A stretch of 60,303 bases of DNA from Candidatus Zambryskiibacteriota bacterium (GTDB taxonomy: Bacteria > Patescibacteriota > Minisyncoccia > Phycocordibacterales > DATDWN01). The notes below the pieces were generated by a model. The model was not told the origin of the DNA and did no database searches. It worked only from the letters and a program-made list of their open reading frames with translations. The stretch covers positions 1 to 60,303 of the forward strand of contig PPGI01000010.1 in NCBI GenBank assembly GCA_003173855.1. The letters are read 5' to 3'. A program made the position numbers and the translations under genes. Below are positions 21,934-26,592 of the stretch, one piece after another (position 1 is the stretch's first letter; every line of letters starts with the position of its first letter).

Positions 21934-24675
21934 ATGGCATTAACAGTAACAAGACATGATGGTAGAAAAGTTCCGTTCAATGCGGATGAAATCAACCGAT
22001 CTATTGAACGAGCTTGTTACGGACTATTTGATCCAGTTTCAAAAGTGACACAAATTGCAACAGAAACCCAATTAACCATTTACGATGGTATTACTACTTA
22101 TGAAATGGACCAAGCCACAATCAATGCTGCCGTTCAAAATATAAAAGATGATCCAGAATACGATATTGTTGCTAAAAGATTGCTTCTAAAAACTGTTTAT
22201 CGACAAGTTATACCAGAATTTCACTCCCATGAACCATACGAGACATTTGTTCTAAAACATAAACTGGGTTTTATTGACTATATTAATAAACATGTAGCTT
22301 CTGGAATTCTACACCAGAACATGAAAGAGAAATTTGATCTCCAAGCTTTATCTCAAACTCTTGATGTTACGCGTGATGAGCTCTTTCAGTACGCTGGACT
22401 TGATGGATTGATCAATCGCTACTTAATTAAAGATCCAAAACAAAATCCAATCGAAACTCCGCAATATTTTTTCATGCGAATTGCCATGGGACTTTCTTAT
22501 AACGAGAAAAATCCTACAGAAATGGCAATGAAGTTCTACAAAAAAATGTCGCGACTCGAGTATATTGCCGGCGGCTCGACAAATTTGGCAGCTGGGAAAA
22601 TAAAACCAGCTCTTTCTAATTGTTATTTGCTCGAAATTCAAGACGACATGGGCAATATTGCAAAATCAGTTTCTGATGTGATGCTTTTGTCCAAAGGTTC
22701 AGGTGGAATTGGTGCATCGGTTACAAAACTTCGTGCTTCTGGATCACCTCTGAAGTCTGCTGGAGGAGGAACTTCAACTGGCCCAACTCCATTTGCCAAA
22801 ATAATTGATACTGCAATCCGTGCAATTCAACGCGGAGGCAAGAAAAAAGGCGCACTTTGTTTCTATATGGAAAATTGGCACTACGATTTTCCAGAATTCT
22901 TGGACTGGAAGCACAATGCTGGAGATGACTACATGAGAATGAGAACAGCTAACACCGCCTGCTTCCTATCTGATGAATTTATGAAGCGAGTTTCTCACGG
23001 GGAAGATTGGTATATGTTTGATCCAGCGGAAACTATGGATCTGTCGGAAATTTATGGTCAAGCTTTTTCCAAGAGATATGCAGAATATATTGAAAAAGCT
23101 GAACGAGGGGAGCTTCGAGTATATAAGAAAGTGCCAGCAACGGAACAGTATAGGCAAATTTTGGTTGCTCTTCAGACAACTTCACACCCATGGTTAGTTT
23201 GGAAAGATTCTATAAATCTTCGGGCTTTAAACAACAATACCGGTACGATTCACATGTCGAATCTTTGTACGGAAATCTGTCTGCCACAAGACAGAGAAAA
23301 TATCGCTGTATGTAATCTAGCATCTCTTAATCTTTCTGCTCATATAAAAAATCGGGAAGTTAATTGGGCTCGACTTGAAGAATCTGTCCGTTTAGCAATC
23401 CGCCAACTTGATAACTTGATTGATATAAATGTTCTTCCAATTCCAGAAGCTGCAAAATCAGACAGAGAAAACAGGGCAATTGGTCTCGGAGTGATGGGTT
23501 TTTCTGACACGATCGAGCAACTTGGTATGTCGTATGACTCACCGCATGCTTGGGATTTTGCTGATCGCATTTTTGAATTTATTTCTTATATGGCAATTGA
23601 CGAGTCAGCTAACCTTGCGGCAGAACGTGGAAGCTACATGAATTTTAATGGTTCAGAATGGTCAAAAGGTCATGTGCCAGTAGATACTTTGGCAAAATTG
23701 GAACTTGAGCGTGGAAGAGAACTTACAGTTTCAAAAGTTTCAAAGCATAAGGGTCTAAATTGGGATATTTTGCGTGAAAAAGTTAAAAGAGGGATGCGAA
23801 ATGCAACTTTAATGGCTGTTGCTCCAAATGCAAACATCGGACTCTTGGCAGCAACTACACCAGGAATTGATGCTCGTTTTGCTCAAGTCTTCTCTCGAAA
23901 TAAAATTTCAGGAAAATATTTAGATATCAATCATAATTTGGTCAAAGATTTAAAAAATATGGGGATTTGGGATGATGTTAAAGATTTGATCATTGAACTT
24001 CAGGGAGATATTAGTTCAATCGAGAAAATTCCTCAGCATATTAAAGATGTCTATAAAACTTCATTTACCACTTCTCCATATGCATATGTTGAAGTAGCTG
24101 CACGAGCTCAAAAATGGATTGACCAAGCACTTTCTCGAAATATGTATCTTGAAACACGCGATGTTGATGAAACAATGAAAATTTATTCAACAGCTTGGGA
24201 AAAAGGTCTTAAATCAACATACTATTTACACATGAAGCCTCGACATACGGCAGAACAATCAACAACAAACGTAAACAAAGCTCAAAAAATCGGAAAAGTT
24301 GGTTTCGGAGTCTTAAATTTCTCAAGCTCTCCAGCTTTTTCGGCACCATTACAAAAATCTTTAACTATTGACGAATCAAATCCAAGTGAGCCCATGTTTG
24401 TACCATCAGAAGCTCCTGCTACAGTAAAAGTTGTTGAAGAAATTAAAGTTGAGCCTACTCCAGTTGCTTCTCAAGTTATAATCAAAGAGACTGTAGCAGT
24501 TGAAACAGTTGCAAATATAGGTGATACAATTCAAATTGAAGAGGAACCAATGGTTTCAGTTAGAATTTCACATCAGATTCCGACACCTGAAGTTAATACG
24601 CCAACTCCTAATGTCTCTTTTGGACCGGAAGATCCGGCAGAGGATGAGGGCAACGTCTGCATCAGCTGTCAGTAG
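21934..24675 (+). CDS. nrdA: Class I ribonucleotide reductase large subunit with ATP cone
   Basis: N-terminal ATP cone, LSNCYL, SNLCTEI, VCNLAS, STYYLH, C-terminal CISCQ. Confidence 0.96.
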   Translation: MALTVTRHDGRKVPFNADEINRSIERACYGLFDPVSKVTQIATETQLTIYDGITTYEMDQATINAAVQNIKDDPEYDIVAKRLLLKTVYRQVIPEFHSHEPYETFVLKHKLGFIDYINKHVASGILHQNMKEKFDLQALSQTLDVTRDELFQYAGLDGLINRYLIKDPKQNPIETPQYFFMRIAMGLSYNEKNPTEMAMKFYKKMSRLEYIAGGSTNLAAGKIKPALSNCYLLEIQDDMGNIAKSVSDVMLLSKGSGGIGASVTKLRASGSPLKSAGGGTSTGPTPFAKIIDTAIRAIQRGGKKKGALCFYMENWHYDFPEFLDWKHNAGDDYMRMRTANTACFLSDEFMKRVSHGEDWYMFDPAETMDLSEIYGQAFSKRYAEYIEKAERGELRVYKKVPATEQYRQILVALQTTSHPWLVWKDSINLRALNNNTGTIHMSNLCTEICLPQDRENIAVCNLASLNLSAHIKNREVNWARLEESVRLAIRQLDNLIDINVLPIPEAAKSDRENRAIGLGVMGFSDTIEQLGMSYDSPHAWDFADRIFEFISYMAIDESANLAAERGSYMNFNGSEWSKGHVPVDTLAKLELERGRELTVSKVSKHKGLNWDILREKVKRGMRNATLMAVAPNANIGLLAATTPGIDARFAQVFSRNKISGKYLDINHNLVKDLKNMGIWDDVKDLIIELQGDISSIEKIPQHIKDVYKTSFTTSPYAYVEVAARAQKWIDQALSRNMYLETRDVDETMKIYSTAWEKGLKSTYYLHMKPRHTAEQSTTNVNKAQKIGKVGFGVLNFSSSPAFSAPLQKSLTIDESNPSEPMFVPSEAPATVKVVEEIKVEPTPVASQVIIKETVAVETVANIGDTIQIEEEPMVSVRISHQIPTPEVNTPTPNVSFGPEDPAEDEGNVCISCQ

Positions 24676-24685
24676 ATTGAAAAAT

Positions 24686-24805
24686 AAATCTCATTGAGCC
24701 ATAATTTTTTCAGCGCATCGCGGAGTGCGTGAAGCACGAGCGCGAGGAAATTTTCGAGTACGAAAATATTCCGGTGATAAAAAAATTATGATGAAAAAGA
24801 GATTT
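24686..24805 (+). repeat. Palindromic intergenic element, family 2
   Basis: tttttcagcgcatcgcggagtgcgtgaagcacgagcgcgaggaaa matches the reverse complement of 33175-33220 almost perfectly. Confidence 0.9.
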
Positions 24806-24851
24806 TTGTTGACCAAAATTAGAAGTCCTGTAAAATGTAATCACTAAACAT

Positions 24852-25862
24852 ATGACACTGATTGGAAAAGCAAGTCCCGAAGATATGAATCTCCACCCAC
24901 TGAACTACAAGTGGGCATACGAACTTTACAATCAAGCAGTTAGAAACACATGGTTTCCTCACGAAATTGCTCTTAAAGAAGATTTAGACGACTTTGCAAA
25001 GATGACAGATGATGAAAAGCATGCAGTGAAATTTTTAATGGCTTTTTTCAATCCTGCAGAGCTAATTGTAAATCGTTCCATTGCACTTGGGATCTATCCA
25101 TATCTAAAATCTCCAGAATGTCATCTTTATTTAGCAAAGCAAATGTGGGAAGAAGCAAATCACTGTGTTGCTTTTGAATATGTGCTTGAGACATTCCCAT
25201 TTGATCGAACTACTGTTTTCAATACTCACCTTGAGGTGCCTTCAATGATTGCTAAGGAAGTTTACATTAACAAGTACATGAAGCGAATGACTGACGACAG
25301 GCTCGATATCTCAACTGTGGATGGCAAAAAAGACTTTATTCGCAATCTTGTAGCAACCAATATTGTTATGGAGGGTGTTTGGTTTTATTCTGGCTTCATG
25401 GTTGCTCTATCATTTCGTCAGAGAAATCAGTTGCGAAATTTTGGTTCGATGATCAACTGGGTGCTACGAGATGAGTCACTTCACCTTAAATTTGGAATAA
25501 ATCTAATTCACAATATTTTAGAAGAAAATACAGAACTTTTGACAGAAGAGTTTGCAGCAGAAATTCGAAACATCATTATTGAAGGAGTGGATCTTGAAGT
25601 TAATTACAACAAAGACCTTTTTCCAAACGGAATTCTGGGATTAAATGCTGATTATGTAAACCAATACGTGCAGTACGTTGCCGACAGGCGATTGCAGGAG
25701 CTTGGAATGCCAAAATATTACAATGTAACCAATCCCGCAAAATGGATGTCAACTGCAACTGATGTTTTTGAATTGGTTAACTTTTTTGAATCGCAAAATA
25801 CAAGCTATGAGGTTGATTCACACGCATCAACTAAGAAAGAAACTCCTAGCGTCGCTGAATAG
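24852..25862 (+). CDS. nrdB: Ribonucleotide reductase small subunit, class Ic-type
   Basis: PAELIV, EEANHCVAF, MEGVWFYSGF, RDESLH, NFFE..NTSY. Confidence 0.93.
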   Translation: MTLIGKASPEDMNLHPLNYKWAYELYNQAVRNTWFPHEIALKEDLDDFAKMTDDEKHAVKFLMAFFNPAELIVNRSIALGIYPYLKSPECHLYLAKQMWEEANHCVAFEYVLETFPFDRTTVFNTHLEVPSMIAKEVYINKYMKRMTDDRLDISTVDGKKDFIRNLVATNIVMEGVWFYSGFMVALSFRQRNQLRNFGSMINWVLRDESLHLKFGINLIHNILEENTELLTEEFAAEIRNIIIEGVDLEVNYNKDLFPNGILGLNADYVNQYVQYVADRRLQELGMPKYYNVTNPAKWMSTATDVFELVNFFESQNTSYEVDSHASTKKETPSVAE

Positions 25863-25981
25863 AACTTCCCAATTTGGCCAATTTCTTTGTCGCAGGCTCC
25901 GTTTGCTCCCGCGCAGTATTTTTTATACAGCTTGGTCGCAATACTCGCTTGCTTCGCGAACTTGTCTCAAATTTGAAAGTT
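25863..25981 (+). repeat. Palindromic intergenic element, family 1 subgroup
   Basis: Inverted ends aacttcccaatttgg / caaatttgaaagtt; core shared with the 21139-21269 element. Confidence 0.8.
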
Positions 25982-26002
25982 TGTGGTGACTTTTAAATTA
26001 AC

Positions 26003-26030
26003 TTGACAGGAAAATTTAACATGCTATACT
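26003..26030 (+). promoter_or_regulatory. Sigma70 promoter
   Basis: TTGACA-16 nt-TATACT with TG extension. Confidence 0.7.
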
Positions 26031-26034
26031 TTGG

Positions 26035-26302
26035 TTGTTCAGGTAGTTCTACCAAGCTTCATCTGAACAATTGAGCCTTCAAAAAGCTTGGTTTCCTAGT
26101 AGACAAATTAGTTTACTAGCCGCGGATTACGATCCACCGGTACCGTGGGCAAGTTGACAGAGTGGTACGTTGGAAGTGGCAACCCCCAACGTAAAAATAT
26201 CTTGTTTCTTGAGGTTCCGGATTTGGTGGAGTTGCCCACGCGAATCCGGAACAGCTGCAGTTCTTTCGTTTCGTTTATCGCTCCGCGCTCCGGAGCTTTT
26301 TT
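26035..26302 (+). ncRNA. Candidate structured non-coding RNA (unassigned)
   Basis: Starts at the predicted TSS, five or more stems, predicted pseudoknot, ends in GCTCCG/CGGAGC + T6 terminator; no SD-led ORF. Confidence 0.65.
26280..26302 (+). terminator. Intrinsic terminator
   Basis: GCTCCG-CGCTC-CGGAGC-TTTTTT. Confidence 0.7.
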
Positions 26303-26360
26303 CTTGACTAAATTTTAATATTAGAGAAGATAAGAAAAGAAAGTTCCGAAAGGAGATGTT

Positions 26361-26524
26361 ATGAGCGAAGGGATGGTCGTCAGCCAGCTGATCCTTACTC
26401 TGAAAAAATCAAAAGACAGATCGCTGAGGAAGATGATTCTGAACTCTTACGTGAGATTGTGAGAGAAAATATTGGCCATGTATCACTTGAGTGTGAGTGG
26501 CCTCCCGAATTTCTCGACGAATGA
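26361..26524 (+). pseudogene. Small orphan ORF, probably frameshifted
   Basis: aggag-ATG frame stops at 26462; the other frame (DGRQPADPY..EFLDE) runs to 26524 just before hairpin GCCTGGTG/CACCAGGC. Confidence 0.4.
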
Positions 26525-26592
26525 ACTACGAGCCTGGTGTATATGCACCAGGCTTCGCTTTTGATATAATTTTTACATAATTAAAAAAATTC

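What the first reader, a model, noticed from the sequence alone, without database searches (positions are those of the whole stretch)
24852..25862. R2 lacks the radical tyrosine: class Ic (Mn/Fe) signature
Seen: EEANHCVAF has Phe at the position four residues after the His ligand, and the first ligand is Glu (PAELIV). Known: Chlamydia trachomatis R2c has the same Tyr-to-Phe and Asp-to-Glu changes and uses a Mn(IV)/Fe(III) cofactor. Inference: an oxygen-dependent, tyrosyl-radical-free RNR in a presumed fermentative symbiont, implying oxygen exposure and de novo dNTP supply.
Basis: partly seen in the sequence, partly recalled or inferred. Interest (0 to 1): 0.55.

Follow-up and report, generated by a model that had tools for sequence, protein, structure and literature searches.

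The report
Tyrosine-less (class Ic-like) ribonucleotide reductase subunit
This gene encodes the small subunit of the only DNA-precursor-making enzyme (ribonucleotide reductase) in a tiny 651 kb Patescibacteria genome. It lacks the usual radical tyrosine, as in the manganese/iron enzyme of Chlamydia, so it is an ordinary new member of a known enzyme type, though from a lineage nobody has tested at the bench.

Summary
ORF 24852-25862 (+) is a 336-aa class I RNR beta subunit (PF00268, 2e-76). It has all six metal ligands, Glu70 as first ligand and Phe108 at the radical-Tyr site. Trp34 and the C-terminal Tyr319 of the radical-transfer path are kept.

The nearest solved proteins, by sequence and by predicted fold, are the C. 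trachomatis and 6Y2N R2c structures (251 bits against 123 for the next; TM 0.88). R2lox, class Ia/Ib, Id and Ie fail their defining features.

The catalytic subunit lies directly upstream with every catalytic residue intact. I found no other RNR in the 97%-complete genome: no class III, no second barrel. It does carry a Fe/Mn superoxide dismutase. The oxygen-dependence and de novo dNTP inferences therefore hold.

Two caveats apply:
- The protein sits in a well-supported all-Glu/Phe clade that is not sister to the Chlamydia lineage (AU p about 0.02-0.03), and I found no structure or study from that clade. Mn/Fe is therefore inferred from the signature only.
- The type is common. It occurs at 74-94% identity, with conserved gene order, in many species of the same order, and this scan flagged the same signature in at least 8 other genomes.

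Verdict: new member of a known kind, of modest interest.

The parts
21934..24675 (+). nrdA: class I RNR alpha subunit, 913 aa. It has an ATP-cone, an all-alpha domain, the catalytic barrel, and then a tail of about 125 aa (low-complexity for most of its length) ending in CISCQ.
   Evidence: Pfam hits: PF03477, PF00317 and PF02867 (4.9e-158). NCBIfam NF005101 scores 1197 bits against a cut-off of 988. The best solved relative is P. aeruginosa NrdA 5IM3, 607 bits. Aligned to E. coli NrdA, it keeps C230, N443, C445, E447, C460, Y763, Y764 and the C-terminal C909/C912.
24676..24851 (+). 176-nt nrdA-nrdB spacer. It holds two promoter-like sites (24677-24705 and 24809-24836) and no terminator-like site.
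   Evidence: Sequence read; consensus scan. Promoter-like sites are not enriched over shuffles, so it is undecided whether nrdB is co-transcribed with nrdA or has its own promoter.
24852..25862 (+). nrdB: class I RNR beta subunit, 336 aa, with the class Ic-like signature.
   Evidence: PF00268 at 257.5 bits. NF007186 at 356 bits against a cut-off of 237. PDB 1SYY/4D8F at 251 bits. AF2 model with pLDDT 89.7; Foldseek top hits are C. trachomatis NrdB at TM 0.88, rmsd 1.4 A.
24951..24953 (+). Trp34 codon, equivalent to Ct W51 and E. coli W48 in the electron/radical relay.
   Evidence: Invariant in all 144 typed R2 sequences.
25059..25061 (+). Glu70 codon: the first metal ligand, which is Asp in Tyr-radical R2s.
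   Evidence: Aligns with Ct E89 and with E. coli D84. Glu in all 57 non-Tyr sequences.
25152..25163 (+). Glu101-x-x-His104: the second and third metal ligands.
   Evidence: Aligns with Ct E120/H123.
25173..25175 (+). Phe108 codon, at the radical-tyrosine position (E. coli Y122, Ct F127).
   Evidence: Invariant in the 8-row clade and in all 10 query-type loci from other Patescibacteria genomes.
25371..25373 (+). Glu174 codon: metal ligand (Ct E193).
   Evidence: invariant in alignment A1.
25473..25484 (+). Glu208-x-x-His211: the last two metal ligands (Ct E227/H230).
   Evidence: invariant in alignment A1.
25806..25808 (+). Tyr319 codon: the C-terminal radical-transfer tyrosine (Ct Y338, E. coli Y356). 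It is followed by a 17-aa tail, which I take to be the alpha-binding tail.
   Evidence: Tyr in 93% of Glu/non-Tyr sequences and 92% of Asp/Tyr sequences. The tail is disordered in the model (pLDDT below 50 from residue 304), as expected for a peptide that folds onto alpha.

Best explanation
nrdB (24852-25862) encodes the radical-initiating beta subunit of a class I ribonucleotide reductase. It works with the alpha subunit encoded directly upstream, and together they are this organism's only route from ribonucleotides to deoxyribonucleotides.

Shown by sequence:
- A complete two-metal carboxylate site: E70, E101, H104, E174, E208, H211.
- Phe, not Tyr, next to metal site 1.
- An intact radical-transfer path: W34 and Y319 in beta; Y763, Y764 and C445 in alpha.
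- The reducing cysteines C230 and C460, the C-terminal CxxC shuttle, and an ATP-cone in alpha.

Inferred by analogy with C. trachomatis NrdB:
- The protein binds Mn(II) in site 1 and Fe(II) in site 2.
- It reacts with O2 (or H2O2) to give Mn(IV)/Fe(IV), which takes one electron through W34 and the aromatic residue at 203 to become the stable Mn(IV)/Fe(III) oxidant. Residue 203 is Trp here and Tyr222 in Chlamydia.
- During turnover, that metal centre, rather than a tyrosyl radical, reversibly oxidises C445 of alpha through Y319 and Y763/Y764.
- Alpha is re-reduced by a thioredoxin-type system; a TrxB-like gene and a weak thioredoxin match lie elsewhere in the genome.

Because assembling the cofactor needs O2 or a reduced oxygen species, the cell must meet at least traces of oxygen in order to replicate.
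For: - Family and residues.
- Nearest solved sequences are the two R2c proteins (1SYY/4D8F at 251 bits, 6Y2N at 247 bits), against 123 bits for the next.
- The nearest solved folds are the same proteins: TM 0.88, rmsd 1.4 A, against TM 0.76-0.83 for others.
- Strict coupling of Glu with non-Tyr and Asp with Tyr across 134 sequences, with no Asp+non-Tyr case.
- The query sits in an all-Glu/Phe clade (100/99 support), and Phe is kept in every query-type homologue typed.
- The alpha subunit is intact. It lies upstream in 78 of 80 related loci and in all 10 query-type genomes checked.
- This is the only PF00268 and the only PF02867 match in the genome, and there is no PF13597 match.
- SOD and a TrxB-like gene are present.
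- Class Ic chemistry as reviewed in PMC8463856.
Against: - No metal can be read from sequence.
- The clade is not the characterised one. The representative of the Chlamydia/Saccharopolyspora cluster (P0130) branches among Asp/Tyr proteins in both trees.
- Forcing it together with the query clade costs 61 lnL units (AU p 0.022). A D/Y gammaproteobacterial NrdB (P0136, 230 bits) is about as similar to the query as P0130 (247 bits).
- No member of the query's own clade has a solved structure.
- No Nramp transporter and no true FeoB were found. The FeoB_N hits are short GTPase matches, so the metal supply is unexplained.
- The electron-relay Tyr222 of Chlamydia is Trp here.
Confidence: 0.7

Rival explanations
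1. It is a tyrosine-less beta subunit with a metal-centred oxidant, but the metals differ from Chlamydia. The cofactor would be a di-iron (Fe(IV)/Fe(III)-type) or di-manganese (class Id-like Mn(IV)/Mn(III)) centre rather than Mn/Fe.
For: - The query clade is phylogenetically separate from the only biochemically characterised R2c lineage.
- The Glu/non-Tyr state changes at least three times on the 97-row tree, so the chemistry need not be identical in each lineage.
- Class Id shows that a Glu-first-ligand scaffold can run on Mn2 (PMC8463856). Glu+Tyr relatives are interleaved in the tree.
- The C. trachomatis scaffold is itself prone to mismetallation.
Against: - The Glu+Phe pair with an otherwise unchanged ligand set is exactly the combination of the proteins shown to use Mn/Fe.
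- Class Id proteins keep the Tyr.
- The nearest solved sequences and folds are Mn/Fe proteins.
Confidence: 0.2
2. The radical is stored on another aromatic side chain, for example Tyr110 two residues after Phe108 or a nearby Trp. The enzyme would then be a displaced-radical class Ia variant.
For: Tyr110 is invariant in the 8-row clade. It is enriched in Glu/non-Tyr sequences: 84% against 34% in Asp/Tyr sequences.
Against: - The same Tyr is present in P0130, the representative of the Chlamydia/Saccharopolyspora R2c cluster, whose Chlamydia member uses the metal cluster as oxidant (PMC8463856).
- Position i+2 on a helix points away from the site faced by position i.
- No Tyr is specific to the query clade.
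Confidence: 0.05
3. [quoted passage not shown]
For: R2lox shares the Glu first ligand, the missing radical Tyr and the Mn/Fe cofactor (PMC3824934). The R2lox NCBIfam models give weak matches (best 80 bits).
Against: - All R2lox models score far below their cut-offs (80 against 194, 56 against 274, and so on), while an RNR beta model scores 356 against 237.
- An R2lox structure (7QBK) scores only 47 bits.
- The C-terminal Tyr and tail, which R2lox lacks, are present.
- The gene follows nrdA in 78 of 80 related loci.
- It is the only R2 homologue in a genome that has an alpha subunit.
Confidence: 0.02
4. It is a catalytically dead or purely regulatory beta-like subunit, like yeast Y4 or apicomplexan R2_e2, and dNTPs come from salvage.
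For: Radical-Tyr-less, non-catalytic beta paralogues do exist (PMC3824934). Most sampled genomes of the same order have no R2 match with this query (103 of 151), which suggests that salvage is enough for many relatives.
Against: - Dead paralogues lose ligands and accompany a working beta. Here all ligands, W34 and Y319 are kept, and there is no second beta.
- The protein is the most conserved in its neighbourhood: median 88% identity, against 70% for NrdA and 68% for GAPDH. That indicates strong purifying selection.
Confidence: 0.03

Closest known systems
Chlamydia trachomatis NrdB / R2c (class Ic; PDB 1SYY, 4D8F, 4M1I) and the R2c of PDB 6Y2N
   Same: - Same fold: TM 0.88, rmsd 1.4 A.
- About 37-39% identity.
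- Identical ligand set with Glu first ligand, Phe at the radical site, Trp34/W51, C-terminal Tyr319/Y338, and a Tyr two residues after the Phe.
   Different: - Not its sister lineage. The Chlamydia/Saccharopolyspora cluster branches among Asp/Tyr proteins of gammaproteobacterial type, and joining it to the query clade is disfavoured (AU p 0.022).
- The relay Tyr222 is Trp203 here.
- By the NCBIfam model lengths and match offsets, the Chlamydia-type and Pseudomonas-type alpha models carry roughly 150-235 extra N-terminal residues, while this alpha has a single ATP-cone. Burnim et al. report 3 and 2 cones for those two enzymes.
- This alpha also has a long low-complexity tail.
Class Ic-like beta subunits of other clades, as reported by Burnim et al. 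2022 (bioRxiv 10.1101/2022.04.23.489257) in the NrdAz and NrdAq groups
   Same: A redox-inert residue at the radical site, in class I enzymes of largely bacterial 'group 3'. My trees likewise show several separate Glu/non-Tyr clades.
   Different: That study does not mention CPR, Patescibacteria or Parcubacteria (0 occurrences). I could not assign the RNRdb subclass name of the query clade, because no named reference sequences were available.
Pseudomonas aeruginosa class Ia RNR (NrdA, PDB 5IM3)
   Same: It is the closest solved alpha subunit (607 bits over residues 3-814).
   Different: The Asp/Tyr gammaproteobacterial beta subunits in my set (for example P0136, which I take to be of the Pseudomonas type) carry the radical Tyr and Asp. 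The Pseudomonas alpha starts matching at its residue 148, so it has extra N-terminal sequence.
R2lox (M. tuberculosis Rv0233, Geobacillus kaustophilus, S. acidocaldarius 7QBK)
   Same: Glu first ligand and no radical Tyr (PMC3824934).
   Different: R2lox has no C-terminal Tyr or alpha-binding tail and is not linked to nrdA. The query fails all R2lox models and has the tail, the Tyr and the adjacent nrdA.

Membership tests
Class I RNR beta subunit (PF00268, NrdB) | Ferritin-like R2 domain scoring over the curated cut-off | tested here: met
   PF00268 at 257.5 bits against 33.6. NF007186 at 356 against 237 and NF005550 at 312 against 309.
Class I RNR beta subunit (PF00268, NrdB) | A cognate alpha subunit with the catalytic Cys/Asn/Glu residues, the Tyr-Tyr pair and the C-terminal Cys pair | tested here: met
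   The adjacent ORF 21934-24675 has C230, N443, C445, E447, C460, Y763, Y764 and C909/C912.
Class Ic (R2c) | Redox-inert residue (Phe/Leu/Val/Ile) in place of the radical Tyr (E. coli Y122, Ct F127) | tested here: met
   Phe108 aligns with Ct F127 and E. coli Y122.
Class Ic (R2c) | Complete six-residue metal site with Glu rather than Asp as first ligand | tested here: met
   E70, E101, H104, E174, E208 and H211 align with Ct E89, E120, H123, E193, E227 and H230.
Class Ic (R2c) | Radical-transfer residues kept: the Trp near the metal site and the C-terminal Tyr, which distinguish R2c from R2lox | tested here: met
   W34 and Y319 are present.
Class Ic (R2c) | Mn(IV)/Fe(III) cofactor as the cysteine oxidant, with no tyrosyl radical | not testable with these tools
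   Needs metal analysis, EPR/Mossbauer spectroscopy and activity assays on recombinant protein.
Class Ic (R2c) | Common descent with the characterised C. trachomatis / S. erythraea R2c. This is not a formal criterion of the class, but it is the basis for transferring the metal assignment. | tested here: inconclusive
   - The best trees place the two apart.
- The exclusive-clade constraint gives dlnL 61, AU p 0.022. One clade of all Glu/non-Tyr rows gives dlnL 57, AU p 0.030.
- The model was LG+F+G4 only, and the backbone supports are weak.
R2lox | Match to the curated R2lox models | tested here: not met
   Best is NF006200 at 80 bits against a cut-off of 194; the others are lower.
R2lox | No C-terminal Tyr or alpha-binding tail, and no linkage to nrdA | tested here: not met
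   Tyr319 plus a 17-aa tail are present. nrdA lies upstream here and in 78 of 80 related loci.
Class Ia / Ib | Radical Tyr four residues after the first His ligand, with Asp as first ligand | tested here: not met
   Phe108 and Glu70. The class Ib model TIGR04171 scores 93 bits against 355, and the class Ia model NF006576 scores 85 against 346.
Class Id | Glu first ligand together with a retained (non-radical) Tyr at the Y122 position | tested here: not met
   The position is Phe. PDB class Id proteins (6CWO, 6SF4, 5OLK) score only 51-58 bits.
Class Ie | Loss of metal ligands (a metal-free DOPA radical) | tested here: not met
   All six ligands are present.

The most novel reading that the evidence does not exclude
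The query belongs to a tyrosine-less beta lineage that arose independently of the Chlamydia R2c lineage. It is the sole RNR of many members of one order of ultra-small Paceibacteria-type bacteria. Being a separate origin, it may use a different metal pair or assembly route (for example superoxide or H2O2 from a host rather than O2). That would make it a natural replicate for asking why, and how, the radical tyrosine is given up.
Probability: 0.3. Interest if true: 0.55.

Novelty: new member of a known kind. Interest (0 to 1): 0.33.

Why it matters
Class I RNRs need oxygen or a reduced oxygen species to build their cofactor. A CPR bacterium whose only RNR is class I cannot be a strict anaerobe while it replicates. 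That fits recent evidence that many CPR lineages tolerate or use oxygen (PMC12577380), a study that does not mention RNR.

In the papers searched here, every class Ic experiment concerns the Chlamydia enzyme, and the only other solved R2c is 6Y2N. A small, highly conserved protein from an uncharacterised Glu/Phe clade would be a useful second test case for what sets Mn/Fe selectivity.

For genome annotation the point is practical. These genes are deposited simply as "ribonucleotide-diphosphate reductase subunit beta", which hides the different cofactor requirement.

Tried and rejected
1. Mixture-model trees did not finish on the single CPU. This applies to the PMSF "careful" tree and to the treekit AU test. 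A first direct IQ-TREE run timed out and was resumed. I therefore used the quick PMSF trees and an IQ-TREE LG+F+G4 tree with 1000 UFBoot/SH-aLRT replicates.
2. A first AU test used "-fast" constrained searches. It exaggerated the penalty (dlnL 120, p 0.0007). The thorough searches supersede it (dlnL 61, p 0.022).
3. The listing of cluster members gave almost no organism names. Names came instead from genome contigs.
4. I first read the distribution as recent horizontal transfer into this genome. In the phylum sample, the three same-order genomes with an R2 carry 34-36%-identity R2s of the Asp/Tyr type. A denser sample of the order showed the query type at 74-90% identity in 26 of 150 other genomes across many families. 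Related loci also share nrdA-nrdB-gap-rpiB gene order. The type is therefore long-established in the order and patchy, not a recent arrival.
5. Phage origin: the best phage R2 is only 36% identical.
6. Rfam found nothing in or beside the operon. No NrdR is present, so I did not pursue NrdR boxes.
7. The FeoB_N matches are short hits to other GTPases, not FeoB.
8. I could not include named class Id, class Ie or R2lox sequences in the tree, because no tool gave them by reference. Those classes were excluded by HMM scores and residues instead.

Full report
**The thing itself.** The window has one ATG-started ORF at 24852-25862 (+) of 336 aa. It is a ribonucleotide reductase small chain: PF00268 at 2e-76, covering 281 of 281 profile positions. 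NCBIfam NF007186 scores 356 bits against a cut-off of 237.

In HMMER's alignment to C. trachomatis R2c (1SYY, E 1.4e-73), the correspondences are:
- E70 = E89
- E101 = E120
- H104 = H123
- F108 = F127
- E174 = E193
- E208 = E227
- H211 = H230
- Y319 = Y338

E. coli NrdB was taken from NC_000913. Against it, the nine key columns read WDEHYEEHY for E. coli and WEEHFEEHY for the query.

**Is the pattern meaningful?** I pooled two sets: the full-length proteins among the best 150 representatives (50% identity clusters) returned by a search of 1.84 billion proteins, and 51 R2 genes cut from Patescibacteria genomes. Among the 144 sequences with a complete ligand set:
- 77 are Asp+Tyr.
- 57 are Glu+non-Tyr (44 F, 9 V, 2 L, 1 I, 1 A).
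- 10 are Glu+Tyr.
- None is Asp+non-Tyr.

The sequences are related, so this is not a statistical test. On the 97-row tree, however, the Asp/Tyr and Glu/non-Tyr states change at least three times. The two substitutions travel together across several lineages, as expected for a functional signature.

**What it resembles.**
- By sequence, the closest solved proteins are the C. trachomatis R2c entries (251 bits) and 6Y2N (247 bits). The next, the Clostridium botulinum R2 6ZJK, scores 123 bits. E. coli R2 scores about 72, class Id proteins 51-58, and an R2lox 47.
- An AlphaFold2 model built on a 36-row alignment has mean pLDDT 89.7. Only the C-terminal 33 residues are disordered.
- Foldseek puts the Chlamydia NrdB structures first, including the Mn(II)Fe(II) form 4M1I: TM 0.88, rmsd 1.4 A, 37% identity. 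6Y2N comes next. All other R2s reach TM 0.75-0.83.
- R2lox shares the Glu and Phe, but it is excluded. Its NCBIfam models score 80 bits or less against cut-offs of 194-346. The query keeps the C-terminal Tyr and tail that R2lox lacks (PMC3824934). The gene also follows nrdA.

**The partner and the genome.** The 913-aa ORF at 21934-24675 is a class I alpha subunit with an ATP-cone, an all-alpha domain and the catalytic barrel.
- It scores 1197 bits on NF005101, and its closest solved relative is P. aeruginosa NrdA.
- Aligned to E. coli NrdA, it keeps C225, N437, C439, E441, C462, Y730 and Y731 (here C230, N443, C445, E447, C460, Y763, Y764). It also has a terminal CxxC.

The genome (G000) is 650,933 bp in 16 contigs, 97% complete. 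Its close relatives are labelled Parcubacteria, Zambryskibacteria, Taylorbacteria, Paceibacterota or Minisyncoccia.
- Present: one PF00268 match, one PF02867 match (so no class II barrel), a Fe/Mn superoxide dismutase, a thioredoxin-reductase-like gene and a weak thioredoxin match.
- Not found: class III NrdD, NrdR, haem-copper oxidase, Nramp, AhpC-type peroxiredoxin and rubrerythrin.

The enzyme is therefore the only RNR found. The remaining ~3% of the genome is unseen.

**Where it sits in the family.**
- In a quick PMSF tree of 97 rows and an LG+F+G4 tree of 47 rows, the query falls in an all-Glu/Phe clade. The clade holds the query and its close homologues, P0121 and P0122, and as sister group P0135, P0140, P0186 (a Hydrogenobaculum MAG) and P0218. 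Support is SH-aLRT 100 / UFBoot 99.
- The clade is not next to the characterised R2c. P0130 matches 6Y2N at 688 bits and Chlamydia R2c at 459 bits, so I use it as the stand-in for that lineage. It branches among Asp/Tyr proteins of gammaproteobacterial type.
- With thorough constrained searches, forcing query clade plus P0130/P0182 into one exclusive clade costs 61 lnL units (AU p 0.022). Forcing all 24 Glu/non-Tyr rows into one clade costs 57 (AU p 0.030).
- The model is site-homogeneous and the backbone supports are weak, so I treat separate origin as likely but not established.
- It agrees with Burnim et al., who found class Ic-like beta subunits in more than one alpha clade, and with the polyphyly reported by Lundin et al. 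as cited in PMC3824934.
- The consequence is that Mn/Fe is inferred from the shared signature, not from orthology with a tested enzyme.

**Other tyrosines.** The only Tyr enriched in Glu/non-Tyr sequences near the site is Y110 (84% against 34%). The Chlamydia/Saccharopolyspora representative has it too, so it offers no lineage-specific alternative radical site. The Chlamydia assembly-relay residue Y222 is Trp203 here. Across Glu/non-Tyr sequences that column is Y 40%, W 35% and F 23%.

**Distribution.**
- In 401 genomes drawn evenly from the phylum, 76 have some R2 match and 115 have class III NrdD.
- Of 50 typed Patescibacteria R2s besides the query, 22 are Glu/Phe. These fall into the query type (56-81% identity over the full query length in that alignment), a second type at 33-37%, and one outlier at 28%. 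A further 25 are Asp/Tyr and 3 are Glu/Tyr.
- In 151 genomes of the window's own order, 26 others carry the query type at 74-90% identity, spread over many families. 103 have no R2 match.
- The species-representative collection holds 308 relatives. The best 80 are 82-94% identical. nrdA lies upstream in 78 of 80, gap downstream in 47 of 80 and rpiB in 35 of 80.
- R2 is the most conserved of these proteins: median 88% identity, against 70% for NrdA, 68% for GAPDH and 57% for RpiB.
- The operon is thus an old, strongly constrained and patchily retained feature of this order, not a peculiarity of this genome.

**Prior knowledge.** Class Ic, its signature and its chemistry are textbook (PMC8463856, PMC3824934). 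I found no paper in the searchable library that discusses class Ic RNR in CPR/Patescibacteria. A 2025 study of oxygen-related genes in CPR does not mention RNR. This scan has flagged the same signature in at least eight other genomes, and look-alike stretches occur in 77 windows.

**Verdict.** This is a correct and well-read observation of a known enzyme type in a lineage where it is common but undescribed and untested. Two points are worth keeping:
- It is the sole RNR of a reduced, apparently non-respiring genome, which argues for oxygen exposure.
- It belongs to a Glu/Phe clade distinct from the Chlamydia one, so the metal assignment is still open.

Noticed in passing
window 24290-24675 (NrdA residues ~786-913): NrdA carries a tail of about 125 aa between the Tyr-Tyr region and the terminal CISCQ. 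Most of it is low-complexity, rich in Val, Pro, Glu, Ser and Ile. It lies beyond the end of the curated alpha model (NF005101 match ends at residue 812). Another finding of this scan already notes it (e1-5058627).
   Followed up: partly
window 25863-26592: A 730-nt gap lies between nrdB and gap. It holds the best promoter-like site of the region (26003-26030, 11 of 12 consensus positions, with an extended TG) and a terminator-like hairpin at 26280-26296. There is no Rfam match. In relatives the nrdB-gap distance varies from about 70 nt to over 600 nt. Already covered by e1-5058629.
   Followed up: partly
proteins P0176 and P0181: Two R2 representatives nested inside a Glu/Phe, intein-bearing clade have lost several metal ligands. 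Their key columns read WSGHIEVQY and WSLHFEAHY, yet both keep W and the C-terminal Tyr. They may be metal-poor or metal-free beta subunits outside the known class Ie lineage, or dead paralogues.
   Followed up: no
proteins of 614-755 aa (e.g. P0133, P0139, P0143, P0153, P0162): About 30 of the 150 best R2 representatives are twice the normal length and match the query in two stretches. This is the pattern expected for intein insertions in both the Glu/non-Tyr and Asp/Tyr types. The inserts were not examined.
   Followed up: no
L057, L058, L059 (G079, G315, G028): Three Patescibacteria R2 genes of about 400-415 aa combine a Glu first ligand with a retained Tyr. They are only 17-20% identical to the query. 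This is the class Id-like combination, with extra N-terminal length.
   Followed up: no
L066 (JBEBJM010000038.1) and L108 (DATGWK010000083.1): Contigs in MAGs labelled 'Nitrospira sp.' and 'Candidatus Nanoarchaeia archaeon' carry nrdB that is 94% and 88% identical to the query. For L066 I also saw the Paceibacteria-type nrdA-nrdB-gap gene order. These are most likely mis-binned Patescibacteria contigs.
   Followed up: partly
G000 whole genome: Of the oxidative-stress genes searched, only a Fe/Mn SOD was found. AhpC-type peroxiredoxin, rubrerythrin, NrdR and an Nramp Mn transporter were not found, and neither was a true FeoB. How the cell obtains Mn and Fe and removes peroxide is unexplained. 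ZIP, ABC and P-type transporters were not searched.
   Followed up: partly
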